Shown one piece after another: positions 6,324-32,763 of a stretch of DNA of 50,226 nt (positions are counted from its first letter, which is position 1; each line of letters starts with the position of its first letter). The stretch covers positions 14,217-64,442 of the forward strand of contig MHKD01000013.1 in the NCBI GenBank assembly GCA_001818775.1, in the 5' to 3' direction. The position numbers and the translations under genes are program-made. The notes below the pieces were generated by a model. That model worked only from the letters and a program-made list of their open reading frames with translations. It was not told the DNA's origin and did no database searches. The DNA comes from Candidatus Kerfeldbacteria bacterium RIFCSPHIGHO2_12_FULL_48_17. Its GTDB lineage: Bacteria > Patescibacteriota > Patescibacteriia > HO2-48-17.

Positions 6324-7166
6324 ATGCAAGAAAAAACTCGAAAAAAAGTAGAATGGCTTATTGAGAATCATAAACAAGCCATAAAAAATAATGGCGCAAA
6401 AATTGCCTTGGCAAGAAATCCGAACCTCCCGCGAATGATGCAAGAACGTGAGAAGTTTGAGATTCAATATCTGCTTAATAGACTACGCGACCAACGCACT
6501 GAACTTTTACCTTTTGTGAAGGGAATTAAAAAGCATGTTAAAGGTATCACAGAGAATACCCATGTATGTGCCGTATATATTCTTTTATCACGTATATTTC
6601 AAAATTGGGATGCCTTATTTTTGTTGGCCGAACATGGAAAAAATTCACCTTCACAAAATCTTATGAGAATGATTAAAGAAGGTTGTATGTTGGTTAAGCT
6701 ATTTACTGTGGACTCTGACTCAGGGGAGCGAAAAAATTTAGATAAGTGGTTCTCTGGTGATATCGTATCTCATGGCATAGGTCGTGACACAACAAGTGAA
6801 TATTTCGATGAACATTCCCCGTATCCAGAGATCGATACAAAAAAGTTAGAGTCACACATTTATCAGATGGAATCTCAAGCTTCTCACAACGCTTACGCAT
6901 CAATACTGGAATCCGTCAGCCCATTTACAGAGGATTTTGATTTTGATGGCCATGCTGATTTTCACCATACAAAAGCTGTCATAGCAGAAGGCTCTATGAC
7001 AGATACAGCTATAACTTTAAAGGCAGTGTACTCGATTTTACTTAAAGACATAGATGGGTTTGAAAAAATCAGTGAGATTTTAATAAAATATAATCCAGAT
7101 ATTAATGACCCTACGAATAAAGAAGACATAAAAGAATTTATCAAAAGTGATTTCGAACCTAGTTAA
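6324..7166 (+). CDS. hypothetical protein in AT-rich island
   Basis: A 280-aa ORF in a region of visibly low GC. It has no firm motif. A helical segment, WDALFLLAEHGKNSPSQNLMRMIKEG, is loosely reminiscent of HEPN/AbiV-type helices; this is unverified. Confidence 0.55.
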   Translation: MQEKTRKKVEWLIENHKQAIKNNGAKIALARNPNLPRMMQEREKFEIQYLLNRLRDQRTELLPFVKGIKKHVKGITENTHVCAVYILLSRIFQNWDALFLLAEHGKNSPSQNLMRMIKEGCMLVKLFTVDSDSGERKNLDKWFSGDIVSHGIGRDTTSEYFDEHSPYPEIDTKKLESHIYQMESQASHNAYASILESVSPFTEDFDFDGHADFHHTKAVIAEGSMTDTAITLKAVYSILLKDIDGFEKISEILIKYNPDINDPTNKEDIKEFIKSDFEPS

Positions 7167-7236
7167 TACATTCTATTTAAAATGAAAGAGATAAACCTTG
7201 CGAATAAATGATCAAAACCCTCGTCTCCAAACTCAT

Positions 7237-7686
7237 ATGATCAAAACAATAAAAATAGCGCTCCTCATAATAGCATCAATCTGTTCGTTGATAATTTTTG
7301 GTATTATGCTTCCGAGGTGGAGAATACCAGAGTTTACCAATGTGCCTGAGGAGTATCAAAAATGCTCACAAGGCACAGCCTACTATTATTATGATGAGCC
7401 AACCTGGATTTTCATTGCCGATATAAACATAAAAGGAAAGGTAAAAAACGGCAAAGAAGTATTCATCGCAACGGCTTATACAATTTTAGGTATCCCCATA
7501 AGTCAGGTGGAAGTGACATGCGCTTTAGACGTCAGTCCTAACGCGCTTGGGGATTATTATCATATGTGGTCATTGCTTCCTTTCTTTGGTTTAATAGCTT
7601 TGTACAGCGTAGCAGCTTCATTTTTTCTGTTAATGCTTTCGCCAATTATATTGCTGATATATTTCATTCGAAAAATAAAGAGGTAG
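7237..7686 (+). CDS. hypothetical membrane protein with N- and C-terminal TM segments
   Basis: In-frame ATG inside the TTG-initiated ORF 7198..7686. Hydrophobic segments are IKIALLIIASICSLIIFGIML and LLPFFGLIALYSVAASFFLLMLSPIILLIYF. Confidence 0.55.
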   Translation: MIKTIKIALLIIASICSLIIFGIMLPRWRIPEFTNVPEEYQKCSQGTAYYYYDEPTWIFIADINIKGKVKNGKEVFIATAYTILGIPISQVEVTCALDVSPNALGDYYHMWSLLPFFGLIALYSVAASFFLLMLSPIILLIYFIRKIKR

Positions 7687-7744
7687 TGTAAAATTATTTT
7701 ATTCTGTGCAACGCATCACAAATAACAGCTTATTTTAAACAACT

Positions 7745-8257
7745 ATGAAACTCATCAGCGCCGACAGACATAATTCCCTCATAAATCTTGCCTTGCCAGT
7801 ATGGATAGGAATAGCTTTCTTTGTTCTGTTTGCGTTTGTATTCGGCCTCGCCAGTAAGCAGACCAGCACACTCGATGTATTTATCATCGTACTGTTTATG
7901 TGGCCCGTTATAGTCATATTGGCGCAAAATTCATTTTCAAAAAGAACCCACCGTCTTTATGTTGATGACGCGGGCGAACTCTATGTTGATCAAAAATTTC
8001 ACATAGCAAAAAATAATATCAAAGATATTCTTTCTTTCCGCTCTTGGCAGAAATATGAATACCTTATGCTGTTTCTCAAAAGTGATATCGAAGGGTTGAA
8101 AGACAAAGAAATAAAATTCATTATCCGAAAAAATATTTGGGCGGTAATTTTCAAGAGGCCATACATTGACACCTGGCAGGAGCTGGGCAAAATCGGTTGG
8201 CCACAGTCGCAGGTCACGCGCCATGGCTGGCCAACTGACAGCTCACACAAACTTTAA
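7745..8257 (+). CDS. hypothetical membrane protein, two N-terminal TM segments plus a soluble domain
   Basis: A 170-aa ORF with two hydrophobic helices followed by a ~100-aa domain. The layout resembles bacterial PH-like (2TM+bPH) proteins; this is unverified. Confidence 0.5.
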   Translation: MKLISADRHNSLINLALPVWIGIAFFVLFAFVFGLASKQTSTLDVFIIVLFMWPVIVILAQNSFSKRTHRLYVDDAGELYVDQKFHIAKNNIKDILSFRSWQKYEYLMLFLKSDIEGLKDKEIKFIIRKNIWAVIFKRPYIDTWQELGKIGWPQSQVTRHGWPTDSSHKL

Positions 8258-8881
8258 ATGACACAAAATAATTTATTACAAATCAAAACCCTCATCTTCG
8301 ACCTCGGTGGTGTCTACTTCACTGACGGCGCAGCCACGGCCATCAAATCCATAGCCGCCACATATTCCCTCACCGAAGCGCAGGTCACCGAAGTCATCAA
8401 AGGCGATCTCGGCACGCAGTACCGCATCGGCGCCATCACCCCCGACGAATTTTGGCAGCGGGCCACAGCCGCCTGGAACATCACCGCACCAACCGCCGAA
8501 ATCGCCGCCATCTGGCTGCAGGCCTACGTGCCCATTCCCGCCACCATCGCCCTCATCGACCGCCTGCAAACCGCCGGCTACGAACTCCTGTTTCTTTCCG
8601 ACAACGCTCCCGACCGCATCGACTATCTGGAAAAAACCTATCACTTTTTGCAGCATTTCCAGGACGGCGTCTTTTCCCACATCGCCGGCGTGCGCAAACC
8701 CGATCCCAAAATGTATCAACTCGTCCTGCAAAAAACCACCACGCCAGCCGCGCAGTGCCTATTCATCGACGACAAACCGGCAATGCTCGAACCCGCCCGG
8801 AAATTAGGTATGCACGTCATCCACTTCACGGGTCCGGAGCAACTGGAAAAAGATCTGCAATCACTCGGCCTCAAATTTTGA
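8258..8881 (+). CDS. HAD-superfamily hydrolase
   Basis: N-terminal LIFDLGGVYF (HAD motif I variant), LSDN, and a late FIDDKP motif. GC rises abruptly exactly at this start codon. Confidence 0.75.
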   Translation: MTQNNLLQIKTLIFDLGGVYFTDGAATAIKSIAATYSLTEAQVTEVIKGDLGTQYRIGAITPDEFWQRATAAWNITAPTAEIAAIWLQAYVPIPATIALIDRLQTAGYELLFLSDNAPDRIDYLEKTYHFLQHFQDGVFSHIAGVRKPDPKMYQLVLQKTTTPAAQCLFIDDKPAMLEPARKLGMHVIHFTGPEQLEKDLQSLGLKF

Positions 8882-8902
8882 AAAAGCCATTACTCAAACG
8901 TA

Positions 8903-8996
8903 GAGCCGTCGCGACGGCTGTGGACAACTTTGGCCTCGACAATCACTCAAAACAGCGATACAATACCGATACCTAAACCCATCAAAAATTACTGTC
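8903..8996 (+). repeat. promoter/leader module, copy 1 of 3
   Basis: Module is GAGCCGTCGCG..CTGTGGACAACTTT..CTCGACAAT..TACAATACCGATACCTAAACCCATCAAAA. This copy has GCCGTC-GC-GACGGC as an inverted pair. Confidence 0.9.
8936..8964 (+). promoter_or_regulatory. sigma70-type promoter TCGACA-N17-TACAAT (copy 1)
   Basis: Hexamers and the 17-nt spacer were counted directly. The same architecture appears in all three module copies. Confidence 0.6.
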
Positions 8997-9410
8997 ATGA
9001 GTAAAGAGCATGTCCTTACCAAGGAATACTTTGACCAAGCCATTCAAACTTTGGCGTCGAAGGAATATGTCGATAAAGCTGTTCAAAACGTAGCCACAAA
9101 GGAATACGTTCATCAGACTATTCAGGAAAGTTTCAAAGATTTCGGTCAGGTCCTGATGAAAATTTTTGCAACCAAGGAAGAATTAAATGTGTTAAAGATA
9201 GAGCTAAAAGCAGAAATACAATCAAACAAGGAAGAGATTTTAGAGGAAATGCGTGATATGAAAGATGAAATACTCACCAGTAATGACAAGACTGTTCAAA
9301 AGATGATAAAGATAGAACAGGAACAAACGGTTACCACCCACCGCATGGATCGCATCGAAACCGAACACGGTGCGCGAATCACGACGCTGGAAGAATATGA
9401 TCGGGCATGA
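8997..9410 (+). CDS. coiled-coil protein, paralog 1
   Basis: 137 aa. It has N-terminal 11-residue (S/T)KEY repeats followed by SFKDFGQVLMKIFATKEEL, a heptad-rich middle, and the conserved C-terminus TTHRMDRIETEHGARITTLEE. Confidence 0.75.
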   Translation: MSKEHVLTKEYFDQAIQTLASKEYVDKAVQNVATKEYVHQTIQESFKDFGQVLMKIFATKEELNVLKIELKAEIQSNKEEILEEMRDMKDEILTSNDKTVQKMIKIEQEQTVTTHRMDRIETEHGARITTLEEYDRA

Positions 9411-9494
9411 CATGACCTTCAATGATTTGACATTCCTTTTGCCGTGCCAGGGCATGGAATATCTTGCCGGTGGAAGGCAGTTAGATAAACTCAT

Positions 9495-9644
9495 ATGAAA
9501 ATGTTAAATTTTTTCAAGAAAAGAAAGAATTCCAAAGGGGGATTTACTGACTTTTTCCTCAATGCCACTCCTGCAGAAAGGGCTAATAAAGATCAACAGG
9601 ACTTGGTGAAGAGGGTAAAAGAAATGAAACACGGAGTCTTATAA
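9495..9644 (+). CDS. small ORF (49 aa), hypothetical
   Basis: It encodes MKMLNFFKKRKNSKGGFTDFFLNATPAERANKDQQDLVKRVKEMKHGVL and is followed about 20 nt later by a terminator hairpin. No clear SD sequence. It is below the ORF-track length cutoff. Confidence 0.35.
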   Translation: MKMLNFFKKRKNSKGGFTDFFLNATPAERANKDQQDLVKRVKEMKHGVL

Positions 9645-9664
9645 AACATAACTTCAAGTACAAA

Positions 9665-9697
9665 AAACAACTCCAATAAGGGGGTTGTTTTAGTTTG
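9665..9697 (+). terminator. candidate rho-independent terminator
   Basis: Stem AAACAACTCC pairs with GGGGTTGTTT (one G:U), with a 6-nt loop and a T-rich tail. Confidence 0.55.
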
Positions 9698-9931
9698 TCT
9701 TGATAATCAAACCCGCTATAAAAGCGGGCCTTGAAGTGCCTTTTGGGAATGTCTTTGCTTCACTGGGATGTTCCGAGAGAGAACGCCCTCCACAAGGCTT
9801 TACCCGAAGGACTTACCTCGGTTTATAATAGCAGAGAAGTATGTAAATGAAAAAGACTCCCCGCTAAGTTGTGGTATATAAACCACGGCCGAAAGTCCTT
9901 TTCACTAGGAATTATAACATGTCGCACAAAT

Positions 9932-10023
9932 GAGCCGTCGCGCCGTCTGTGGACAACTTTGGTCTCGACAATGACCTAAAACGGCGCTACAATACCGATA
10001 CCTAAACCCATCAAAATTTTTTT
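9932..10023 (+). repeat. promoter/leader module, copy 2 of 3
   Basis: Same module as 8903-8996. Here GCCGTC-GC-GCCGTC is a direct pair. TCGACA is at 9965-9970, then N17, then TACAAT at 9988-9993. Confidence 0.9.
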
Positions 10024-10419
10024 ATGAATGAAAATCAAGACCTCGTAACCAAAAAATATCTGCAGGAAAGTTTCAAGGACTTCGGCGAGACCCTGATGAA
10101 AATATTTGTCACAAAAGGAGAACTCAGGGATGAAATGAACAAAGTCCGCCAGGAGATGAAAAACATGAAGCAGGAATTAAAAACGGATATCTCAGTATTA
10201 GAGATAAAGCTGAGTGCTGAAATCAAATCAAGTAAGGAAAGTGTATTAAAAGATATGCATGAGATGAAAAATGAAATTCTGAACAGCAGTGATACAATAG
10301 TCAAAAAGCTGGTAACAAGAGAGGCAGAAGAAGCAGCTACCACAAACCGCATGGATCGCATCGAAACTGAACACGGTGCGCGAATCACGACGCTGGAAGA
10401 AAAAGTCTTCGAAAATTAA
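10024..10419 (+). CDS. coiled-coil protein, paralog 2
   Basis: 131 aa. N-terminus LVTKKYLQESFKDFGETLMKIFVTKGEL and C-terminus TTNRMDRIETEHGARITTLEE. Confidence 0.75.
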   Translation: MNENQDLVTKKYLQESFKDFGETLMKIFVTKGELRDEMNKVRQEMKNMKQELKTDISVLEIKLSAEIKSSKESVLKDMHEMKNEILNSSDTIVKKLVTREAEEAATTNRMDRIETEHGARITTLEEKVFEN

Positions 10420-10457
10420 TCAGTCACGGCTTCCGCATGCTGCAAACAAAGCAGGTA

Positions 10458-10486
10458 TTGACAGTACCTGTAATTTTATGTATATT
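10458..10486 (+). promoter_or_regulatory. sigma70-type promoter TTGACA-N17-TATATT
   Basis: Hexamers were counted directly. It lies upstream of the methyltransferase gene. Confidence 0.55.
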
Positions 10487-10564
10487 TTCGTCGCCGCAAA
10501 TAGGCAACTACATTAACAAAACGCGCCCCAAAAAGTGGCCGTCAAAAAAGAAGGAGAAAAGCGT

Positions 10565-11347
10565 ATGCTTTTTTCAATCCCACAGGCACTGGAAGAGTAT
10601 AAAGAATTTTGGTTGAAGTTTTTTCCGGAAAGCGCATCCATGACAAAGCAGGAGGCCCACGGCAGGGTGAATGACGCGATTTCAGGTTCCGGAAGCAAGC
10701 TACCAGATCCCCAGCTGGTAGGGTACCAAGACCAGGTGGCCGAAATTTACGGCGCTTATGAGCAACTTGGGCCGCAGTTAGAGGGTATGAAAAGACTTCT
10801 GGAGGAGATCTTTGTGAGGGACGTGGAAGTAAAATATCCAAATCTCGTCTCCCTCGGTTGCGGGCCTGGAAGCTATGAACTGTGGCTGCTTTCGAAGGGA
10901 TTTATCGAACAGGTGACCCTCGTTGACCAGAGTCCGGCTATGCTGGAGCGAGCATGCACCATTGCTGAAGCCTTGGGTCTCGCCGCCCGGGTGGTAATCG
11001 TAAACCTGGAGGCTCAAAATACCAGGTTACCGAGCAAGTGTGCTGACGTAGTTCTTTGCATTAACGCCATGCACTGGTCCCGCAAGTGGCAGGAATGGAT
11101 CAGGGAAGCCGCACGTTTGACTAAGCCGGGTGCGCCCGCATTCATCTCGTTTACCGCTGATCACGCTCGGAGCAAGATCCAGCCTCAAAACTTTGCACGG
11201 GAAATGAGGCAATATTTTCAGATGCAGTCCGCGGGATTTATGCAGGATGTGGAGGCTTTGCGACAGACAGCAACCCATAACCCCACTGCGTTTGTGGCAG
11301 TTTCCATGCGCATGTTTGGTTGCGGGAAACGGTTAAGGCATTTTTGA
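10565..11347 (+). CDS. class I SAM-dependent methyltransferase
   Basis: ATG preceded by AGGAG within the GTG-initiated ORF 10535..11347. Motif I is VSLGCGPG, followed by an acidic post-I residue (LVDQS) and LCINAMHW. Confidence 0.8.
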   Translation: MLFSIPQALEEYKEFWLKFFPESASMTKQEAHGRVNDAISGSGSKLPDPQLVGYQDQVAEIYGAYEQLGPQLEGMKRLLEEIFVRDVEVKYPNLVSLGCGPGSYELWLLSKGFIEQVTLVDQSPAMLERACTIAEALGLAARVVIVNLEAQNTRLPSKCADVVLCINAMHWSRKWQEWIREAARLTKPGAPAFISFTADHARSKIQPQNFAREMRQYFQMQSAGFMQDVEALRQTATHNPTAFVAVSMRMFGCGKRLRHF

Positions 11348-11392
11348 AGAAGGAAAAATCCGCAAAAAAAGAAAAACAAAAAGGAGGTACCT

Positions 11393-11425
11393 ATGAAGTG
11401 GCACAATGGCCGTGATGGCCCCTGA
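11393..11425 (+). CDS. candidate 10-codon micro-ORF (MKWHNGRDGP)
   Basis: AAGGAGGT lies 5 nt upstream of the ATG. The ORF sits between the methyltransferase stop and a terminator. Confidence 0.25.
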   Translation: MKWHNGRDGP

Positions 11426-11466
11426 CTCACAAAGAAGATTCGCATAATCTTTGTGGGTCTTTTTTA
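11426..11466 (+). terminator. rho-independent terminator
   Basis: A 10-bp stem pairs CTCACAAAGA with TCTTTGTGGG (one G:U), with a 12-nt loop and a following T-run. Confidence 0.75.
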
Positions 11467-11480
11467 TTACCCTCCTTGCA

Positions 11481-11589
11481 GAGCCGTCGCGCCGTCATCG
11501 TCCTCTGTGAGGGCTGTGGACAACTTTAACCTCGACAATGACGCAAAACAGCGATACAATACCGATACCTAAACCCATCAAAATATTTT
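11481..11589 (+). repeat. promoter/leader module, copy 3 of 3
   Basis: Same module, with an extra stretch of about 20 nt after the GCCGTC pair. TCGACA is at 11532-11537, then N17, then TACAAT at 11555-11560. Confidence 0.9.
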
Positions 11590-11994
11590 ATGAACGAAAG
11601 CCAAGATCTGGTAACCAAAAAATATCTGCAGGAAAGTTTCAAGGACTTCGGCGAGACGCTGATGAAAATTTTTGTTACGAAAGACGAACTCAAGGAAACA
11701 CGTCAAGAATTAAAGAAAGAAATTCGAGCCAATAAGAAAGATGTAAACATAGTAAAAGCTGATCTGAATATCGTAAAATTAGAAATTCAGGAGATGAGGC
11801 AAGAAAATCGGTCGGCGAAAGATGAAATTCTTAGAAGCAACGCGAAGCTCTTAAAGAGTAATGATAATATCACAAAATTGATATTGAGGGGCGAAGCTGA
11901 GCGGGCCGCAACGACGCACCGTATGGATCGCATCGAATCGGATTTTGGTCCGCGCATCACCGTGCTCGAAGAAGCGCATAAGCAGTGCAACTAA
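11590..11994 (+). CDS. coiled-coil protein, paralog 3
   Basis: 134 aa. The N-terminus matches paralog 2 from LVTKKYLQ through IFVTK, and the C-terminus is TTHRMDRIESDFGPRITVLEE. Confidence 0.75.
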   Translation: MNESQDLVTKKYLQESFKDFGETLMKIFVTKDELKETRQELKKEIRANKKDVNIVKADLNIVKLEIQEMRQENRSAKDEILRSNAKLLKSNDNITKLILRGEAERAATTHRMDRIESDFGPRITVLEEAHKQCN

Positions 11995-11996
11995 CT

Positions 11997-12431
11997 ATGG
12001 GGTGCGCATTTTGCAACGAGACGAGTATTCAAGCCCGCACGATTCTCAAGAACGCGCAGGCTTTTGTTTTTCCGACGAATATTCCGATTGTCCCGGGGCA
12101 CGTGTTGATTGTGCCTACGCGTCATGTTGCCACCATGGACGAACTTACCCCAGCCGAATGGCAAGCTATCCATGTAATCATGAAAAAAATGAAGGCCGCG
12201 CTGCGAAAGGCTTTTCAGGCCGAAGGGTTTAATTATGCTATGAATGAAGGATCAGTGGCCGGCCAATCGGTGCCGCATCTTCACATCCATTTGCTCCCAC
12301 GCAAAACTGGCGACAGCGGTATCACCGAATATGAACCGCGTCAATTTCTTTATCGTCCCGGTTCACGCAAAACTTCGCCCGACGCTGAACTCAACGTCGT
12401 CACTAAAATTATCCGCGCCGCGCTCAAATAA
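11997..12431 (+). CDS. HIT-family (histidine triad) protein
   Basis: ATG lies 2 nt after the upstream stop. The histidine triad is VPHLHIHLLPR. Confidence 0.85.
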   Translation: MGCAFCNETSIQARTILKNAQAFVFPTNIPIVPGHVLIVPTRHVATMDELTPAEWQAIHVIMKKMKAALRKAFQAEGFNYAMNEGSVAGQSVPHLHIHLLPRKTGDSGITEYEPRQFLYRPGSRKTSPDAELNVVTKIIRAALK

Positions 12432-24223: not shown

Positions 24224-24307
24224 GCAGCCTCATCTGCGCAATTCGCATGTCAGCATCCCGACGTCCGTCGGTCTAGCCGAGCCTAGCAAGTCAAGTGAGC
24301 TTCCTCA
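24224..24307. repeat. 84-bp inverted repeat, left copy
   Basis: It is the reverse complement of 32680-32763, with 72/84 identical positions and no gaps by hand alignment. The central palindrome is CCGACGTCCGTCGG. Confidence 0.9.
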
Positions 24308-24356
24308 GAAACATATAAACAAACCCCACGTAAATCTTTCCGAAAAGGTACTACTT

Positions 24357-25612: not shown

Positions 25613-25681
25613 GACCTGAGGATATATCTTTTTCTTGCTCCGGACTCCGCCGGGACTACGAAAAAGACATATCCTCAGGTC
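25613..25681. repeat. hairpin element H1 (22-bp stem, 25-nt loop)
   Basis: The stem (25613-25634 pairing with 25660-25681) has one A:C mismatch. The loop TTGCTCCGGACTCCGCCGGGACTAC is shared with H2. Confidence 0.9.
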
Positions 25682-26839: not shown

Positions 26840-27034
26840 GGTAGGTGAGCGGTGGTTGATGCAGGGTCCCGCGCAGGTTGACAGATGAAAATAAATATGG
26901 TCGCACACAAATCGGCGGCCATTTTTTATTGACAAACAGGTGTAGAATTGGTAAGACAGAGGGTTCGACGAAATCATTTCGCGAACAAAAAATTTTTGCA
27001 AATTGAAAATCTAAAATTAAGGAGGGCGAAGCCC

Positions 27035-28198
27035 ATGAAACACTTGAATTTGAAAAGCATTGCCGCTGCAGTCGTCCTCTTGCTCGTCGCCCTTTCCTGG
27101 GTGAACGAAGTAAGGGGACAGGATTTGGAAATTTCCGAGACGCCGGTAGAGGAGGTAAACAAAGAGTACATCCTTGTACTCAATATCATCATTACTTTCC
27201 GGCAGCCCGATGGAACGGACCTCTCAATTGAACCAGGTGCGGAAATTCAGGTCCGGATCGTTGAAGTTGATAACCTTGGTGTGACCTATGAATTAGAAAG
27301 GGCCAGCCAGGGTGGAATATTGCAGGAACCGGCTGAAAGGACTCGGCCATTTTTCCGGATCATGAATGCGGAGAGGGTGGAAAGAATATTTTCGCTTAAA
27401 CTGTTGCCTGATGCTGGGAATTGGTCAAAATACCAACCACTTCGCGACGAAACCACGCCCGAGATTGATCCAATCGACGTAATGTTTCTCTTCATATACG
27501 ATCATATTGCTTATTCAAAAAAGGCAAAGGAAGAGGGCAGAAACGTTGAAAATAACCCAGACTGGCTGGCTGTGGCAGCAAAGGTGCGCTTGAATATATG
27601 CGCCAGCTGCCGCTACAAAAAAAGTTTCAGCCCGAGTGTCCTATTCAAAGCAGGAAATTCCTGGCTAAACGTGGACCCTAATTATTTCGCAACAGGGGGT
27701 CCGGATTTTCAACTGGGGCTTGGGTTCAACTGGCAGAGATGGTTTTTCAACAGCATCTATGGTGACGTGACTGCTGGTCCAAAAATTCTCAGAAATAGTA
27801 CTTTGGATCAGGACATTACCTGGATGCTGGATGGTGACATCAGCTTCTCACTGTGGGGAATGTGGTTTGCTTACTATTTTTCCGGCGAAGGACTGGAAAG
27901 AGGTTTGCCGAACCGCTATATGGAAATTGATATAAAACATCAATTCCATCCGCAGTGGTTCGACTGGTTTGCCGCAAGCCTGGGTTTTGGGATCGGAAAA
28001 ACAGATTATGAGATAGGAGATGTGGCCTACGGGTATTGGAAGTTCATACCTTTTGTGGAGCTCAGTGCTTTCACAACTGGAGATGAGCTTGTGCCTAAGC
28101 AGCACAGTCTCCGATTCAATTTCAGCTTGTTGAAGGCAGGGAACATCGGCGGTCTGTATGGAAAAAGCTACACCGCCATCCTGGTTTTCAACTTCTGA
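27035..28198 (+). CDS. secreted hypothetical protein with beta-barrel-like C-terminal half
   Basis: AAGGAGGG lies upstream of the ATG. The signal peptide is MKHLNLKSIAAAVVLLLVALSWVNEVRG. The C-terminal ~200 aa are aromatic-rich with an alternating pattern, and the protein ends in ...TAILVFNF. Confidence 0.6.
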   Translation: MKHLNLKSIAAAVVLLLVALSWVNEVRGQDLEISETPVEEVNKEYILVLNIIITFRQPDGTDLSIEPGAEIQVRIVEVDNLGVTYELERASQGGILQEPAERTRPFFRIMNAERVERIFSLKLLPDAGNWSKYQPLRDETTPEIDPIDVMFLFIYDHIAYSKKAKEEGRNVENNPDWLAVAAKVRLNICASCRYKKSFSPSVLFKAGNSWLNVDPNYFATGGPDFQLGLGFNWQRWFFNSIYGDVTAGPKILRNSTLDQDITWMLDGDISFSLWGMWFAYYFSGEGLERGLPNRYMEIDIKHQFHPQWFDWFAASLGFGIGKTDYEIGDVAYGYWKFIPFVELSAFTTGDELVPKQHSLRFNFSLLKAGNIGGLYGKSYTAILVFNF

Positions 28199-28300
28199 AA
28201 ATGCCTCACAAGGGGGTACAAAAAAACCGGCATTGCACAAGCAGTGCCAACAACAACCAAACCAAGCGCCCTAACAGGCGCCAAAGAACTGGAGATTATC

Positions 28301-29560
28301 ATGAGAAAGATTTTTTTTGCAGTATTTATGATCTTGCTGACAGTGTGGGCGATAGGATGTACCGACCATGTGCCGATTAAAGAAGGTGTCACGCCAAATC
28401 CAAATGGAGGTGGTCTTGTTGACGTTCACCTTGGGTATTCCACAGCAAATTGTCAAACACTTCGCTATTACCACACCCTACTGCCGATGTCGGAACAAAA
28501 TGTCGGCACAAAAGGCCCGGAGAAATGGAAACTCGAAAGCATCGCGGTTTCGGCCCTCGGAACAACGGGCGAAATCCTATTTTCAGGACTTGAGGCCAAT
28601 GTTGAGGATCATGGATTCTGGCCAAATTGTCTTGTTGATGGCAGTTTTGACCATGTGCCAAGCACAAGTTCAGATGGGCAGGTCCTCGATCAATTCACTT
28701 GCGATACGGGTGCCTGTAAGTATAAATTTGATGTTCTCTCAGATAGCATTCGGCAGGAGAATGGACCAGAAACTATGTTTGTCGACAATGAAGTGGTTCT
28801 GGATCCACAGGGACAACTCCAGGCCCCCTATGCTGTCGTCTTGACACTGTCAATGCACGACATCATCAAGACCCCGGCGGATGGAAACACAGGCAGATAT
28901 AAACGCTCAATAAAGTTCCCAACCCGGTCAAAGGGTTATGCGTGGTGTGCCGGTAGTAATAGTTATAATAGCTTCCTCTGTCGGATAACTATAGGGGGCG
29001 TACTGCTAACAAAAAAAGTACCAAAACCAACGAACCCCTTGATTCCGAACGTGGGCCTGTTACCATTCGCACCCACAGAAGTTTACGAATATGAAATCGA
29101 TGCCACGGGAAAGCAGGTTTCAACTCAGGGAAGTCAAAATGTCACCTTAGTCTGGCGTCAGGACGCTGTAAATAAGTATGTACAAAGCGACGGTATTTAT
29201 TTTAAAAATAACTTAAATGCCAATAAAACGGATCAAAATACAGCGGCTGAGTTTCAGACAAGTGACAGTGGGAGTCTGAAAATAGGTGACTTCAAAAAAA
29301 CATTCTCCAATCTTCCTGATGGTGTGGGTTATAAACTCAGCACGGGAAAGTTGGTTAATAGCGTATTCTACGGGGTCAATGGCAGCGACTTACGTTTTGG
29401 GATGATAGGAACGTCGGGAGCTCTCATCCAGTTGACTTGCATAACTGGAACGAAAGAAAATTCCGATGGGAGCATCTATAGTGAGTTCGAGTTCGATGTT
29501 ATGAGCGGTGAAGTAATTTCACCATGTAATAATATCGGGGTAGATGCTAAATTAAAGTAA
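28301..29560 (+). CDS. putative lipoprotein, Cys-rich, no recognisable domain
   Basis: GGAG lies upstream. MRKIFFAVFMILLTVWAIGC resembles a lipobox. The mature part has multiple Cys residues. Confidence 0.6.
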   Translation: MRKIFFAVFMILLTVWAIGCTDHVPIKEGVTPNPNGGGLVDVHLGYSTANCQTLRYYHTLLPMSEQNVGTKGPEKWKLESIAVSALGTTGEILFSGLEANVEDHGFWPNCLVDGSFDHVPSTSSDGQVLDQFTCDTGACKYKFDVLSDSIRQENGPETMFVDNEVVLDPQGQLQAPYAVVLTLSMHDIIKTPADGNTGRYKRSIKFPTRSKGYAWCAGSNSYNSFLCRITIGGVLLTKKVPKPTNPLIPNVGLLPFAPTEVYEYEIDATGKQVSTQGSQNVTLVWRQDAVNKYVQSDGIYFKNNLNANKTDQNTAAEFQTSDSGSLKIGDFKKTFSNLPDGVGYKLSTGKLVNSVFYGVNGSDLRFGMIGTSGALIQLTCITGTKENSDGSIYSEFEFDVMSGEVISPCNNIGVDAKLK

Positions 29561-29647
29561 CATTGCGCGCAACTGCGCGCCATAGCTCATTGAATTGGAA
29601 CGCAGTTGCTCATGCAATTTCGTTCCTTTTCAATTCAGGAGAAAATC

Positions 29648-30814
29648 ATGAAAAAAGTAATGCTCGCAGTTGCGATAATGATAGGAACATTGATTCCTGC
29701 GTTGAAGGCACAGGCATTTGAATTGGATCAAGAGAAGTTTTTCCAGATGGTTGAAGATCCAAATTTCACTATCGAAAATTGTGTGCAAGTGGCGGCGAAC
29801 ACTGTTGCGGCTGGTGAAAATAACAATACGTCAGGGTTCACGTCAGAGGAAATAGTGGAAATTGAGAAAGAGTGTAAAAAGCTCAAAAATTTTCAGAAAG
29901 AGATTGTCGCAGAAAAGGCGCTCTTAAAAGAGGAGAATCCGGCGCTGTATGAGTCTATTCCTTGTATATACAACCGCTGGAAAGCCTTTACTGAGTATGG
30001 TATCGAAGATAAACACTGGGACCCTGAGGATGCAGTCAGGTTGGGTCCGGGAGCGGACAGGGTTTGGCGGATTATTGTGCTCAGGGAAAAATCAAACAGC
30101 ATATATCAAAAATTATTGAACCTCGATCCCGATGGTGAAATCTGCCGGTATATATTCACCTTTCAGCAGTCGGTAAGCTGTCCACCAACCAGACCACCGA
30201 CCTATGTCCGTCCGCCGGAACCGCCGCCACAACGGGTTTCAGAGCCAATACCTCGCCCCATGGAAATGGTCACGACATCGGCAGTGGAAACGCAGAGTGC
30301 TTTTTGTCCCTGTATGTGGGTGTTTGATGCCAATGGGACGAAACGTTCCAAGGAACAAAAATACATAGAATGCTACAACTGGAGTATATTACCCAGCGGG
30401 GTAACCCTTGCTGATATTGAGGATGTCTGGCTGGTGGGTGATTTCAATCACTGGGTGGATGCCAAAGATCGCAACCCACCAACATTGAAAAAACTCAAAA
30501 GCTGGCGCTTCCGAAAATACCGCATACCACGGATGAGTGAGGATGGGGTCGCGACTTTCAGCAGCGATAACAGGAAGGGGCGAAAATTTATAAAAGCCAT
30601 GACGCACATCAAAGAAAGCCGCTGGTTGTTTGTGTTCGAACTCAAGAATGGTACCACCCGATGGGCTTCGCTGGATAACTTCGCATTCGACGACGAACGA
30701 TCATGGGCGTGCGGTGTTTTTCAGCAGGAAAGTGGAGCGGTCATGTCCCTCTACACGAAGACATGGCAAACCACCAGCCGCCACCGCATCAGCGCCATGG
30801 AAATGGGCGAGTAA
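29648..30814 (+). CDS. secreted hypothetical protein with Pro-rich linker and possible carbohydrate-binding C-terminal module
   Basis: AGGAG lies upstream. The signal peptide is MKKVMLAVAIMIGTLIPALKAQA and the linker is PPTRPPTYVRPPEPPPQRVSEPIPRP. VWLVGDFNHW resembles the GxFNxW signature of CBM48/E-set modules; this is unverified. Confidence 0.6.
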   Translation: MKKVMLAVAIMIGTLIPALKAQAFELDQEKFFQMVEDPNFTIENCVQVAANTVAAGENNNTSGFTSEEIVEIEKECKKLKNFQKEIVAEKALLKEENPALYESIPCIYNRWKAFTEYGIEDKHWDPEDAVRLGPGADRVWRIIVLREKSNSIYQKLLNLDPDGEICRYIFTFQQSVSCPPTRPPTYVRPPEPPPQRVSEPIPRPMEMVTTSAVETQSAFCPCMWVFDANGTKRSKEQKYIECYNWSILPSGVTLADIEDVWLVGDFNHWVDAKDRNPPTLKKLKSWRFRKYRIPRMSEDGVATFSSDNRKGRKFIKAMTHIKESRWLFVFELKNGTTRWASLDNFAFDDERSWACGVFQQESGAVMSLYTKTWQTTSRHRISAMEMGE

Positions 30815-30985
30815 CGGCCCCAACGAAAAACCAAAACCGCGGCCCCTACCTACCAGGCGCCGCAACCGCGATAGAAAGGAGATTGAACCTTAAACAGACC
30901 GGGAAGCAGAATGTCGACAAGAACCCCAGCTTGACATTTTGCCCCCGGTTTGTTTTTTTATGGAAATCATGTAAGATGAGCAGTT

Positions 30986-32569: not shown

Positions 32570-32638
32570 GCCGAAGGAGGTATACTTTTTTGTGCTCCGG
32601 ACTCCGCCGGGACTACAAAAAAGCACACCTCCTCCGGC
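32570..32638. repeat. hairpin element H2 (22-bp stem, 25-nt loop)
   Basis: The stem (32570-32591 pairing with 32617-32638) has three A:C mismatches. The loop GTGCTCCGGACTCCGCCGGGACTAC shares 24 nt with H1. Confidence 0.9.
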
Positions 32639-32679
32639 TAAAATTAATGCAATCAGTAATGTTTATTTCGTTATGCCTT

Positions 32680-32763
32680 TGAGGAAGCTCACTTGGCTTG
32701 CCGGGCTTGGTCAGCCCGACGGACGTCGGGATGCTGGCATGACAAGTGCGCAGCTGAGGCTGC
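32680..32763. repeat. 84-bp inverted repeat, right copy
   Basis: It is the reverse complement of 24224-24307. It is nested inside a larger hairpin closed by GTTTATTTCGTTAT (32661-32674) and ATAACGAAATAAAC (32797-32810). Confidence 0.9.

What the first reader, a model, noticed from the sequence alone, without database searches (positions are those of the whole stretch)
8903..11994. Three paralogous coiled-coil genes, each with its own copy of a ~95-bp promoter/leader module, showing mosaic (cassette-like) nucleotide conservation
Three small genes (8997-9410, 10024-10419, 11590-11994) encode 131-137-aa heptad-rich proteins with no signal peptide or TM. Their ends are conserved: N-terminus (L)VTKKYLQESFKDFGETLMKIF.TK.EL and C-terminus TT(H/N)RMDRIE(T/S)..G.RIT.LEE. 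Their middles are divergent. Each gene is preceded by the same non-coding module (8903-8996, 9932-10023, 11481-11589).

The module contains a GCCGTC half-site pair, CTGTGGACAACTTT, and a TCGACA-N17-TACAAT promoter. It also has a 29-nt stretch identical in all three copies (TACAATACCGATACCTAAACCCATCAAAA) that covers the -10 element and the whole leader. The leaders lack any AGGAGG-type SD, although most other genes in the window have one. The half-site pair is inverted in copy 1 (GCCGTC-GC-GACGGC) but direct in copies 2 and 3 (GCCGTC-GC-GCCGTC).

Nucleotide identity is mosaic. Paralogs 2 and 3 share a perfect 47-nt block at the 5' end of the CDS (10045-10091 = 11611-11657). Paralogs 1 and 2 share a 55-nt 3' block with one mismatch (9341-9395 vs 10347-10401). 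The sequence in between is far more diverged. This pattern suggests gene conversion or recombination between copies, or nucleic-acid-level function of the conserved ends.

The motif pair 'VTKKxF/L..F' near the N-terminus and 'R(L/M)..IE......G..I..LE' at the C-terminus recalls the multi-copy DUF16 coiled-coil family of Mycoplasma and XhlA-like proteins. That is memory-based resemblance only.
Basis: partly seen in the sequence, partly recalled or inferred. Interest (0 to 1): 0.78.

Follow-up and report, generated by a model that had tools for sequence, protein, structure and literature searches.

The report
Tandem beta-layer coiled-coil genes, shared promoter
Three neighbouring genes in an uncultured CPR (Patescibacteria) bacterium encode a rare, unannotated family of small rod-shaped coiled-coil proteins; each gene has its own copy of a conserved promoter module, the copies have exchanged segments by ordinary gene conversion, and the biological role is still unknown.

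Summary
There are three paralogs (8997-9410, 10024-10419, 11590-11994). Each follows a ~90-nt module with an identical 29-nt stretch covering the -10 element and leader.

The proteins match no Pfam, NCBIfam, PHROG or PADLOC family. Only about 12 clusters exist among 5.8 billion proteins. None is in GTDB species genomes or IMG/VR.

They carry the crystallographically defined beta-layer motif of trimeric alpha/beta coiled coils ([aliphatic]-A/V-T-K-x-D/E). AlphaFold breaks the helix at five of the six motifs modelled. One relative has five exact 9-residue "nonads".

The promoter module is conserved in relatives only ~28% identical in protein: hexamer pair, TGTGGAYRA box, 7-8 nt, -35, 17 nt, -10, then an unstructured leader without a Shine-Dalgarno. 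It occurs only before family genes. The box is within one mismatch of a DnaA box.

The mosaicism is significant (p<=1e-4): paralog 2 is a chimera of 3 (5' part) and 1 (3' part). Synonymous sites in the blocks diverge between lineages, so this is gene conversion, not a nucleic-acid function. The array is at least 99.7% identical in nine further contigs from seven public samples, so no active cassette shuffling is seen.

Verdict: a new member of a known structural kind, of moderate interest.

The parts
8905..8918 (+). Module 1 hexamer pair GCCGTC-GC-GACGGC (inverted), abutting the box
   Evidence: The same inverted pair with a 2-nt spacer is in the distant relative L100.
8919..8927 (+). Module 1 box TGTGGACAA (reverse complement TTGTCCACA, DnaA-box-like), 8 nt upstream of the -35
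   Evidence: Box variants in relatives are TGTGGATAA and TGTGGATGA. DnaA-box table in PMC4285127.
8936..8964 (+). Module 1 sigma-70-type promoter TCGACA-N17-TACAAT
   Evidence: 10 of 12 consensus positions. The architecture is conserved in 11 family loci.
8965..8996 (+). Module 1 leader: 32 nt between the -10 and the ATG, 2 G, no SD, contains CCATCA; unstructured
8997..9410 (+). Paralog 1 (137 aa): four beta-layer motifs (VLTKEYF, LASKEYV, VATKEYV, FATKEEL), conserved core QESFKDFGQVLMKIF, C-terminal HRMDRIETEHGARITTLEE
   Evidence: AlphaFold2 pLDDT 88.6, with helix breaks at residues <=8, 21, 31-34 and 57-59, which coincide with the four motifs.
9934..9947 (+). Module 2 hexamer pair GCCGTC-GC-GCCGTC (direct)
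9948..9956 (+). Module 2 box TGTGGACAA
9965..9993 (+). Module 2 promoter TCGACA-N17-TACAAT
9994..10023 (+). Module 2 leader (30 nt, 1 G, CCATCA, no SD)
10024..10419 (+). Paralog 2 (131 aa): a recombinant, p3-like at the 5' end (perfect 47 nt at 10045-10091) and p1-like from about 10195 to 10401
   Evidence: D1, D5; max chi2 39.7, p<=1e-4. AlphaFold2 pLDDT 87.7, with a single helix break at F28-V29-T30.
11483..11496 (+). Module 3 hexamer pair GCCGTC-GC-GCCGTC (direct), displaced 18 nt upstream relative to modules 1 and 2
11515..11523 (+). Module 3 box TGTGGACAA
11532..11560 (+). Module 3 promoter TCGACA-N17-TACAAT
11561..11589 (+). Module 3 leader (29 nt, 1 G, CCATCA, no SD)
11590..11994 (+). 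Paralog 3 (134 aa). The HIT-family gene's ATG follows 2 nt after its stop (a longer GTG-start ORF from 11985 would overlap it), so it probably heads an operon. This gene order is syntenic in L001

Best explanation
The three genes are tandem paralogs of a rare family of small cytoplasmic proteins found in CPR/Patescibacteria. The proteins are predicted to form rod-shaped, parallel trimeric alpha/beta coiled coils, meaning coiled coils interrupted by beta-layers.

PROTEIN. Each protein has three parts:
- a conserved N-terminal 'head', with two beta-layer motifs bracketing (Q)ESFKDFGExLMKIF;
- a variable-length coiled-coil spacer, which grows and shrinks by whole repeat units;
- a conserved C-terminal segment, SNDxI...HRMDRIE..G.RIT.LE.

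I infer that the conserved ends are docking or oligomerisation surfaces and that the middle is a length-setting spacer. On this reading the proteins act as structural scaffold rods. Homotrimers, and possibly mixed trimers, are plausible because the paralogs share their ends.

REGULATION. Each gene is its own transcription unit, driven by a module specific to this family. The module has, in order:
- a pair of G(C/A)CG(T/G)C hexamers;
- a 9-bp box TGTGGA(Y)(R)A;
- 7-8 nt;
- a near-consensus sigma-70 promoter, T(C/G/A)GACA-17-TA...T;
- a short, G-poor, unstructured leader without a Shine-Dalgarno.

I infer that the hexamers and the box (about -44 to -66 relative to the predicted transcription start) are the operator of one trans-acting regulator that co-regulates all copies. 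DnaA is one candidate, because the box is within one mismatch of a DnaA box. I also infer that translation starts without a Shine-Dalgarno on the open leader.

EVOLUTION. The mosaic nucleotide identity is the footprint of gene conversion or unequal recombination between the tandem copies. Paralog 2 has the 5' part of paralog 3 and the 3' part of paralog 1. This is not a programmed cassette mechanism or an RNA-level function.

SHOWN: the paralogy, the module architecture and its conservation, the motif content, the recombinant structure, and the lack of RNA structure.
INFERRED: the trimeric state, the scaffold role, the existence and identity of the regulator, and the mode of translation.
For: Family
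- No curated family matches.
- Only ~12 clusters exist in 5.8e9 proteins. None is in 185k GTDB genomes or IMG/VR.
- The host is a CPR bacterium: its IleRS is at most 49% identical to Patescibacteria MAGs.
- Broader relatives are 'hypothetical proteins' of Parcubacteria and Microgenomates.

Fold
- The beta-layer consensus and the crystal-structure registers come from PMC4786415.
- There are 8 motifs in 402 residues of the paralogs, against 0 in 14,288 background residues.
- L086 has five motifs at exact 9-residue (nonad) spacing. L001, L091 and p1 have 13-residue spacing.
- AlphaFold2 models (pLDDT 87.7 and 88.6) break the helix at FVT in p2 and at all four motifs in p1.
- The broad family profile hits Tcar0761 5apz (E 4e-6) and DUF16 2ba2 (E 5e-4).

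Module
- It is conserved in the window (three copies), L001, L086/L005, L089, L090 and L100, down to ~28% protein identity, with constant spacings.
- The box plus -35 pattern occurs only before family genes in the 91 loci held at that point. In the window it occurs 3 times vs 0.00 expected.
- The 29-nt block has 0 of 29 variable columns, against 8 of 41 upstream (P=0.010, post hoc).
- There is no Rfam hit, no consensus structure, and the leaders fold no better than shuffles.

Gene conversion
- Codon windows.
- 3SEQ-like test, p<=1e-4.
- Identical codons among same-amino-acid codons: 20/25 for p2-p3 in the N block and 15/17 for p1-p2 in the C block. The other within-genome pairs give 6/14 to 10/18. 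Between lineages p3-L001 gives 16/24 (N) and 8/15 (C), and p3-L086 gives 8/19 and 9/17.

Repeat-unit length variation
- L088 vs L091 differ by 15 aa, and L089 vs L090 by 40 aa.
Against: - There are no expression, oligomer or binding data. The trimeric state rests on motif analogy and monomer models only.
- The N-terminal motif of p2 and p3 (LVTKKY) has Y where the consensus has D/E, and AlphaFold did not break the helix there.
- The hexamers flip orientation between copies and lineages (inverted, direct-forward, direct-reverse). In module 3 they are displaced by 18 nt. That is awkward for a rigid dimeric operator.
- The distal module is absent from L088, L091, L087 and L099. CCATCA is absent from L001, L100 and L099.
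- The hexamer alone is common in the window (35 vs about 24 expected).
- Synteny gives no functional hint: the neighbours differ between loci.
- No regulator gene or dnaA was identified among the window genes that were scanned; genes from about 40.3 kb onward were not scanned.
Confidence: 0.6

Rival explanations
1. The box is a genuine DnaA box. On this view the family is a DnaA-controlled, replication- or cell-cycle-coupled set of genes. DnaA binds TTGTCCACA / TTATCCACA / TCATCCACA just upstream of the -35 and activates or represses all copies. This is a sub-hypothesis about the regulator and is compatible with the main explanation.
For: - All three box variants found in six lineages are within one mismatch of TTATCCACA.
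- TTGTCCACA is the high-affinity box of M. tuberculosis and S. coelicolor, and TTATCCACA that of E. coli and B. subtilis (PMC4285127).
- The substitutions between lineages fall at box positions 2 and 3, where the listed high-affinity boxes also differ (PMC4285127 Table 1).
- TTRTCCACA occurs in the 50-kb window only at these three sites (3 vs 0.61 expected).
Against: - There is a single box per promoter and no cluster.
- A 9-mer within one mismatch of a chosen consensus is expected somewhere in a ~60-nt conserved module with probability of about 1%, before correcting for the many motifs one could have recognised.
- The invariant part is only TGTGGA.
- The box also resembles a second -35-like hexamer (TGGACA).
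- No dnaA gene or oriC was seen in the parts of the window examined, and the DnaA-box preference of this lineage is unknown.
- Four family loci lack the box.
Confidence: 0.2
2. This is a programmed variation (contingency or cassette) system like the Mycoplasma RepMP/DUF16 or mgp repeats. On this view the conserved 5' and 3' blocks serve as recombination handles that shuffle variable middles to diversify an exposed protein.
For: - The identity is mosaic, with sharp block boundaries.
- A fourth chimeric protein, P0002, combines a p3-like head and middle with a p2-like tail.
- The DUF16/RepMP1 genes of M. pneumoniae recombine proximal and coiled-coil domains and vary in 21-nt repeats (PMC3472980).
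- Close relatives differ in repeat number.
Against: - All three copies are complete genes with full promoters, so there are no silent donor cassettes.
- There are only three copies.
- There is no signal peptide, transmembrane segment or lipobox, so no evidence that the proteins are exposed.
- The array is at least 99.7% identical and collinear in nine further contigs from seven public samples, with no alternative junction.
- No recombinase, invertase or reverse transcriptase was found among the window genes scanned.
Confidence: 0.08
3. The perfectly conserved blocks (29-nt leader, 47-nt 5' CDS block, 55-nt 3' block) function at the nucleic-acid level. They could be an sRNA or RNA-binding-protein target, a translational operator, or a structured element.
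For: - The 29-nt block has no variable column, while the adjacent promoter spacer has 8 of 41 (P=0.010).
- A CCATCA core recurs 10-23 nt before the ATG in the window, L086, L089, L090, L088 and L091.
Against: - Synonymous sites in the CDS blocks diverge between lineages.
- The leader differs in the syntenic ortholog L001.
- RNAalifold predicts no pairs.
- Single-sequence folds are no more stable than shuffles.
- There are no Rfam matches, even at E<=1.
- A short linear protein- or sRNA-binding site in the leader (CCAUCA) is not excluded.
Confidence: 0.07
4. The genes are phage-derived XhlA-like or holin-associated lysis accessory genes, or a defence module.
For: Three of 58 broad relatives hit Pfam XhlA at E<0.01 and one hits Phage_XkdX. 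The C-terminal H(E/D)xRIxxLE motif resembles small phage coiled-coil proteins (from memory only).
Against: - The window proteins do not hit XhlA, even at E<=10.
- No PHROG match is better than E 7.5e-4, and none of the best PHROG matches has an assigned function.
- No PADLOC match is better than E 0.006.
- No relative is found in 2.9 million viral contigs.
- There is no hydrophobic segment in the sequences.
- The neighbours are housekeeping genes: IleRS, HAD, methyltransferase, HIT, DNA-alkylation repair, NUDIX, TGT, ClpB.
Confidence: 0.03

Closest known systems
DUF16 / UPF0134 family of Mycoplasma pneumoniae (e.g. MPN010, PDB 2BA2) and its RepMP1-associated genes
   Same: - Small proteins without a signal peptide, in a reduced-genome bacterium, present in multiple copies.
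- An N-terminal beta-layer plus an internal 'FVTK..F' beta-layer, followed by a long coiled coil (PMC4786415).
- Conserved proximal part and variable coiled-coil part.
- Recombination between copies creates hybrid genes, and repeat-unit indels occur in the coiled coil (PMC3472980).
- Function unknown.
   Different: - No detectable family membership: Pfam DUF16 gives E 1.1-1.8 and about 10 bits against a cutoff of 40. The subfamily profile does not hit 2ba2.
- The conserved head (FGExLMKIF) and tail (HRMDRIE..RIT.LE) are different.
- There are only 3 copies and no RepMP1 core.
- A conserved promoter/operator module precedes each gene. I know of no such module described for DUF16.
- The host is CPR, not Mollicutes.
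Tcar0761 / DUF3782-type alpha/beta coiled coils (PDB 5APZ; Hartmann et al. 2016, eLife 5:e11861)
   Same: - The beta-layer consensus [aliphatic]-A-T-K-[polar]-[D/E].
- A relative (L086/P0007) has five consecutive 9-residue nonads (FATKEDLKK...), like the MATKDDIAN repeats.
- The broad profile hits 5apz at E 4e-6.
   Different: - The window paralogs have only 2-4 isolated beta-layers rather than a continuous nonad fibre.
- There is no PD-(D/E)XK endonuclease association.
- The tight subfamily profile does not hit 5apz.
- The flanking conserved segments are unrelated.
DUF1640 / CCDC90-like (MCUR1, CCDC90B) and XhlA
   Same: An ATK-type beta-layer at the start of a coiled-coil stalk (PMC4786415). 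There are weak sub-threshold hits: p2 vs PF07798 at E 0.062, and among broad relatives one hit to CCDC90-like at 2e-6 and three to XhlA.
   Different: Those families are membrane-anchored, and XhlA sits in phage lysis cassettes. The proteins here have no hydrophobic segment and no phage context, and they fail the HMM thresholds.
DnaA-box-containing promoters (DnaA as transcription factor)
   Same: A 9-mer within one mismatch of TTATCCACA lies immediately upstream of the -35 and is conserved across lineages.
   Different: There is a single box, flanked by an unrelated hexamer pair. No binding data exist and no link to replication genes was found. This is a resemblance only.

Membership tests
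Beta-layer (alpha/beta) trimeric coiled coils sensu Hartmann et al. 2016 | Sequence motif [aliphatic]-A-T-K-[polar]-[D/E] interrupting the heptad pattern | tested here: met
   3 strict and 8 relaxed matches in 402 residues of the paralogs, against 0 in 14,288 residues of the other 42 window proteins. Consensus from PMC4786415.
Beta-layer (alpha/beta) trimeric coiled coils sensu Hartmann et al. 2016 | Hexad or nonad arithmetic between successive beta-layers (9, or 6+7n / 9+7n residues) | tested here: met
   L086 has spacings of 9, 9 and then 18, with a degenerate FAIKGD motif midway, giving five nonads. L001 and p1 have 13 and 13; L091 has 17 then 13. For p2 and p3 there are only two motifs, 21 apart, and the register is not resolved.
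Beta-layer (alpha/beta) trimeric coiled coils sensu Hartmann et al. 2016 | Local loss of helix at the three beta residues | tested here: met
   AlphaFold2 monomer models: p2 breaks at F28-V29-T30 only; p1 breaks at <=8, 21, 31-34 and 57-59, which are its four motifs. These are predictions, not structures. The N-terminal LVT of p2 is modelled as helix.
Beta-layer (alpha/beta) trimeric coiled coils sensu Hartmann et al. 2016 | Parallel homotrimer | not testable with these tools
   Only monomer prediction was available. Foldseek found no hit for a bare helix.
DUF16 (PF01519) | Pfam HMM score at or above the gathering threshold (40 bits) | tested here: not met
   p2 scores 9.5 bits (E 1.8), p3 scores 10.3 bits (E 1.1), and p1 has no hit.
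DUF16 (PF01519) | Sequence similarity to the solved member MPN010 (2BA2) | tested here: inconclusive
   The broad 58-sequence profile gives E 4.8e-4. The 5- and 11-sequence subfamily profiles give no hit. The similarity is carried by the ATK repeats.
XhlA (PF10779) | HMM match, a C-terminal membrane segment, and a phage lysis-cassette context | tested here: not met
   No hit for the window proteins at E<=10. The sequences are uniformly hydrophilic (read directly). No viral relatives. No PHROG with a lysis annotation. Housekeeping neighbours.
DUF1640 / CCDC90-like (PF07798) | HMM score at or above 33.5 bits, and a C-terminal membrane anchor | tested here: not met
   Best is p2 at 13.6 bits, E 0.062. 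No hydrophobic segment.
DUF3782 (Tcar0761-type coiled coil) | Homology to the DUF3782 coiled coil or association with a PD-(D/E)XK nuclease | tested here: not met
   DUF3782 is not among the Pfam hits. 5apz is hit only by the broad profile and not by the subfamily profile. No nuclease neighbour.
DnaA-regulated promoter | 9-bp box within the accepted DnaA-box sequence space | tested here: met
   TTGTCCACA, TTATCCACA and TCATCCACA, compared with Table 1 of PMC4285127.
DnaA-regulated promoter | DnaA binding and DnaA-dependent transcription | not testable with these tools
   This needs an EMSA, a footprint or genetics.
Contingency / cassette variation locus | Silent donor copies plus one expression site, or segregating alternative arrangements in populations | tested here: not met
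   All three copies have a complete promoter and ORF. Nine further contigs from seven public samples are collinear and at least 99.7% identical to the window.
Cis-regulatory RNA (riboswitch, attenuator or thermometer) in the leader | Conserved secondary structure with covariation, or an Rfam match | tested here: not met
   0 Rfam hits at E<=1. RNAalifold predicts 0 pairs. z-scores range from -0.47 to +1.6.

The most novel reading that the evidence does not exclude
The conserved TGTGGA(Y)(R)A element is a functional DnaA box. On this reading the gene family is a CPR-specific, DnaA-controlled set of trimeric alpha/beta coiled-coil rods that couples chromosome replication to a structural process such as nucleoid tethering, division or attachment. 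CPR organisms lack much of the canonical cytoskeletal and divisome repertoire. The paired, orientation-flipping hexamers next to the box would then be the site of a second, unknown co-regulator.
Probability: 0.1. Interest if true: 0.7.

Novelty: new member of a known kind. Interest (0 to 1): 0.4.

Why it matters
CPR/Patescibacteria make up a large share of bacterial diversity, yet most of their lineage-specific proteins have no assigned function or structure. This work does four things.

1. It defines a previously unannotated family, with clear head and tail signatures.
2. It assigns the family to a specific, experimentally characterised structural class, the beta-layer trimeric coiled coils. 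That makes the family directly testable by SEC-MALS or crystallography.
3. It delivers a compact, conserved promoter/operator module. The module could serve as bait to identify a CPR transcription factor, and as a native strong promoter with an SD-independent leader for future CPR genetics.
4. It shows that DUF16-style evolution has arisen in a second, unrelated group of reduced-genome bacteria. That style combines multiple copies, conserved ends, a variable rod and recombination between copies.

It is not a new mechanism. The mosaic pattern that drew attention is ordinary gene conversion.

Tried and rejected
- Curated libraries gave nothing above threshold: Pfam, NCBIfam, PHROGs and PADLOC.
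- Rfam gave no match, either at gathering thresholds over the whole window or at E<=1 over 8850-12050. There are no tRNA or tmRNA genes.
- Pattern-plus-tblastn scans for relatives found none in GTDB genomes or IMG/VR, and only one in JGI metagenomes.
- Foldseek of the model against the PDB gave 0 hits, as expected for a single long helix.
- The leader-plus-CDS RNA structure hypothesis was rejected.
- A hairpin between the hexamers and the promoter spacer (GCGCCGT...ACGGCGC in module 2) was considered by eye. It was rejected because the pairing register is not kept in modules 1 and 3 or in L001.
- A sigma-54 reading (GG-N10-GC) and a CRP-like reading (TGTGA-N6-TCACA) of the box were considered by eye and rejected, because the second half-sites are absent.
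- Strain-level chimeras were sought by comparing nine additional contigs, and none was found.
- Synteny gave no consistent neighbour that could serve as a functional clue.
- A search of the window for dnaA or a nearby regulator found none among the genes scanned.
- P0002, the only extra chimera, has no contig on record, so its DNA could not be examined.

Full report
**1. Observation**

The region contains three ORFs on the + strand: 8997-9410 (137 aa), 10024-10419 (131 aa) and 11590-11994 (134 aa). Each follows a copy of a ~90-nt non-coding module, which forms repeat family D2 at 84-90% identity. All specific claims were verified.
- The 29-nt stretch TACAATACCGATACCTAAACCCATCAAAA is identical at 8959-8987, 9988-10016 and 11555-11583.
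- TCGACA-N17-TACAAT occurs three times.
- The hexamer pair is GCCGTCGCGACGGC in copy 1 and GCCGTCGCGCCGTC in copies 2 and 3.
- The 47-nt block 10045-10091 = 11611-11657 is perfect.
- The 55-nt block 9341-9395 vs 10347-10401 has one mismatch.

None of this is chance. CTGTGGACAACTTT occurs 3 times vs 0.39 expected. The leader occurs 3 times vs 0.00 expected. The box plus -35 pattern occurs 3 times vs 0.00 expected.

In module 3, 18 nt lie between the hexamer pair and the box, so the pair sits 18 nt further from the -35 than in the other two copies. Also, a missing Shine-Dalgarno is not exceptional here: by a crude count, only 22 of 45 window genes have even a 4-nt SD core.

**2. Host and rarity**

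The window's isoleucyl-tRNA synthetase is at most 48-49% identical to any of 185,579 species-representative genomes, and the best matches are Patescibacteria/Parcubacteria MAGs. The host is therefore a CPR bacterium with no close sequenced representative.

The neighbouring genes are housekeeping: IleRS, HAD hydrolase, SAM methyltransferase, HIT, DNA-alkylation repair, NUDIX, TGT and ClpB. A glycan-biosynthesis block lies further on.

The protein family is extremely rare.
- Word-indexed searches of 5.8 billion proteins returned 5, 12 and 8 proteins.
- A full HMMER scan of 1.84 billion representatives found 4 strong and about 50 weak relatives.
- None is in GTDB genomes or in IMG/VR viral contigs. 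One is in JGI metagenomes.
- The few named broad relatives are 'hypothetical protein' from Parcubacteria and Microgenomates.
- No Pfam, NCBIfam, PHROG or PADLOC model reaches significance.

**3. What the proteins are**

Aligning the subfamily (A4, 11 representatives) shows three conserved cores separated by a region of variable length: F-x-x-FGE-x-L-x-KIF-x-TK-x-E, then SND-x-I, then HRMDR-x-E...RI-x-x-LE. The broader relatives share a common architecture: repeats of (L/F)ATK(E/D)(E/D)L, then a coiled coil, then a C-terminal H(E/D)xRIxxLE.

A profile of all 58 sequences hits two solved structures best. These are 5APZ (Tcar0761 fused to GCN4, E 4e-6) and 2BA2 (Mycoplasma pneumoniae DUF16 protein MPN010, E 5e-4).

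Hartmann et al. 2016 (PMC4786415) showed that [aliphatic]-A-T-K-[polar]-[D/E] forms a 'beta-layer'. In a beta-layer, three residues leave the helix and form inter-chain backbone hydrogen bonds in a parallel trimer. They assigned the registers 'MAT|KDD' in Tcar0761 and 'FVT|KTEF' in MPN010.

The window proteins carry this motif.
- p1 has VLTKEYF, LASKEYV, VATKEYV and FATKEEL.
- p2 and p3 have LVTKKYL and FVTK(G/D)EL.
- That is 8 motifs in 402 residues, against 0 in 14,288 residues of the other window proteins.
- The relative L086 has five motifs at exact 9-residue spacing. These are the 'nonads' of the Tcar0761 alpha/beta coiled coil. L001, L091 and p1 show 13-residue (6+7) spacing.

AlphaFold2 monomer models are confident (pLDDT 87.7 and 88.6). 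They break the helix only at F28-V29-T30 in p2, and at residues <=8, 21, 31-34 and 57-59 in p1. Those positions are the predicted beta-layer triplets.

I therefore assign the proteins to the structural class of beta-layer trimeric coiled coils. The trimeric state itself is inferred, not shown.

Membership of DUF16, XhlA, DUF1640 or DUF3782 fails. The Pfam scores are about 10-14 bits against cutoffs of 33-40. The tight subfamily profiles no longer hit 2BA2 or 5APZ. The sequences contain no hydrophobic segment, signal peptide or lipobox.

**4. The promoter module is a conserved, family-specific element**

Several public protein calls (P0005, P0006, P0007, P0008) have false N-terminal extensions that translate the module ('...AVxxAVDNF...'). 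That observation led me to the DNA of the relatives.

Anchored on the promoter, ten loci share the same architecture:
- hexamer pair G(C/A)CG(T/G)C-NN-G(C/A)CG(T/G)C;
- box TGTGGA(C/T)(A/G)A;
- 7-8 nt;
- -35 element T(C/G/A)GACA;
- exactly 17 nt;
- a -10 element;
- a 21-43-nt leader with 0-3 G (5 in L001) and no SD.

The distal part (hexamers plus box) is present in the three window copies, L001, L086/L005, L089, L090 and L100. Those proteins are as little as ~28% identical to the window's. The distal part is missing in L088, L091, L087 and L099. L099 still has a -35/-10 pair at 17-nt spacing but none of the other module elements.

A CCATCA core lies 10-23 nt before the ATG in the window, L086 (twice), L089, L090, L088 and L091. 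It is absent from L001, L100 and L099.

The box plus -35 pattern occurs only in front of family genes in the 91 loci held at that point.

The hexamers change orientation. They are inverted in copy 1 and L100, direct GCCGTC in copies 2 and 3 and in L001, and direct GACGGC in L089 and L090. The hexamer alone is common in the window (35 vs about 24 expected). Only the paired arrangement is specific.

The box is within one mismatch of the DnaA box in all lineages. TTGTCCACA is the M. tuberculosis and S. coelicolor box. TTATCCACA is the E. coli and B. subtilis box. The third variant is TCATCCACA (PMC4285127). TTRTCCACA occurs nowhere else in the window. This is a lead, not a demonstration.

The position of the hexamers and box, about -44 to -66 from the predicted start, suits a trans-acting regulator. 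I infer that one factor co-regulates all copies.

The leader is not a structured RNA. There are no Rfam hits at E<=1, no consensus pairs, and folding energies are no better than shuffles. An open, G-poor leader fits SD-independent initiation; that is an inference.

Among the three window copies, the 29-nt block has 0 of 29 variable columns, against 8 of 41 between the box and the -10 (P=0.010, post hoc). This suggests some extra constraint, or a conversion tract. The syntenic ortholog L001 has a different leader, so the block is not a family invariant.

**5. The mosaic is gene conversion**

Codon-wise comparison shows that p2 equals p3 at the 5' end: 11 of 11 and 13 of 14 same-amino-acid codons are identical. 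It equals p1 at the 3' end, with 14 of 15 identical. A 3SEQ/max-chi2-type test with p2 as the child of p3 and p1 gives chi2 39.7 and permutation p<=1e-4.

The decisive control is the comparison between lineages. In the same blocks, p3 vs L001 has 16/24 (N block) and 8/15 (C block) identical synonymous codons. p3 vs L086 has 8/19 and 9/17. The within-genome pairs p2-p3 (N block) and p1-p2 (C block) have 20/25 and 15/17, while the other within-genome pairs sit at the between-lineage level.

So the blocks are conserved as protein, and the extra nucleotide identity is recent exchange between the tandem copies. It is not a nucleic-acid-level function.

The array is at least 99.7% identical and collinear in nine further contigs from seven public samples, so there is no sign of ongoing shuffling. 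One protein with no contig on record (P0002) is another chimera.

Close relatives differ by whole repeat units: L088 to L091 adds 15 aa, and L089 to L090 adds 40 aa. The rod length therefore evolves by repeat indels. The same happens in the DUF16 genes of M. pneumoniae, which also recombine proximal and coiled-coil parts (PMC3472980).

**6. Mechanism proposed**

Shown:
- a rare CPR family;
- beta-layer motif content;
- independent, conserved promoter modules;
- an unstructured leader without an SD;
- the recombinant origin of paralog 2.

Inferred:
- parallel trimers, with possible mixed trimers because the ends are shared;
- conserved head and tail acting as docking surfaces, with the variable middle as a spacer, so that the proteins are scaffold rods;
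- a single regulator acting on the hexamer and box element, with DnaA as a candidate at roughly 20%;
- high, coordinated expression from three gene copies.

The physiological role remains open, because synteny offers no clue. Paralog 3 probably heads an operon with HIT, DNA-alkylation-repair and NUDIX genes, and the p3-HIT-alkylation-repair order is conserved in L001.

**7. Comparison and verdict**

The closest known system, in terms of how it works, is the DUF16/RepMP1 family of M. pneumoniae. The closest structural class is the alpha/beta coiled coils of Hartmann et al. The family is not a member of DUF16, XhlA, DUF1640 or DUF3782 by any sequence test run here.

It is a new member of a known structural and evolutionary kind, with one additional new feature: the conserved promoter/operator module. 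The phage (XhlA), defence, RNA-element and programmed-cassette readings are each disfavoured by specific tests.

Interest is moderate. The finding is a useful entry point into CPR-specific biology and regulation. The feature that drew attention, the mosaic identity, has an ordinary explanation.

Noticed in passing
window 11385-11466; L001 313-395: A strong SD (AAAGGAGGT) precedes a 10-codon mini-ORF (11393-11425, MKWHNGRDGP*). An intrinsic-terminator hairpin with a T-run follows directly (11426-11466). The element lies between the methyltransferase gene and module 3. The SD, the start of the peptide (MKSYNARDGP...) and the hairpin are conserved in the ~71%-identical lineage L001. It could be a leader-peptide or attenuator-like element, or a micro-protein.
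   Followed up: partly
window 9411-9931: An unusually long (520-nt) spacer separates paralogs 1 and 2. It holds a 49-aa ORF (9495-9644, called as a 47-aa gene in a public assembly) and a terminator (9664-9691). About 240 nt follow with no ORF. That stretch folds better than shuffles on both strands (z -2.7 and -3.2), and there is a promoter-like site on the minus strand (9853-9825). There is no Rfam match. It could be an unknown ncRNA or a decayed gene copy.
   Followed up: partly
window 24224-24315 and 32672-32763; also 25628-25666 and 32585-32623: A 92-nt inverted repeat (84% complementary) brackets an ~8.4-kb block. The block holds a GT4 glycosyltransferase, a Wzz-like protein and four large proteins with no Pfam match (26948-32569). 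A 39-nt palindromic, terminator-like repeat occurs twice near the same boundaries. This could be a mobile or invertible glycan-biosynthesis segment.
   Followed up: no
window 7000-8900: There is a sharp composition change. GC is 29-41% across the three no-Pfam genes at 6324-8257, and 54-60% across the adjacent HAD hydrolase gene (8258-8881).
   Followed up: no
L090 2087-3739 and 4621-6273; L089 1206-2858; L099 2063-3715: In the distant lineages the family gene sits next to 550-aa proteins, two copies of which flank it in L090. The L090 copies have no Pfam hit. A 550-aa protein two genes upstream in L099 is DUF2079. This may be a recurrent neighbour.
   Followed up: partly
L094 and L005 (both from JGI sample 3300002460): One metagenome contains both a contig 100% identical to the window's array and a contig encoding the distant family member P0007/L086-type. 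Two family-bearing CPR lineages therefore co-occur in that sample.
   Followed up: no
P0005, P0006, P0007, P0008 (public gene calls): Automatic gene callers extend these ORFs upstream through the promoter module. This produces spurious N-termini such as '...SAVAAPSVDNFGLDN...'. The true starts are the internal Met just before the first (V/L)T(K/Q/R)-type motif (P0005-P0007: xxxLVTKKY / PLTKEY; P0008: MNTPVTQ).
   Followed up: yes
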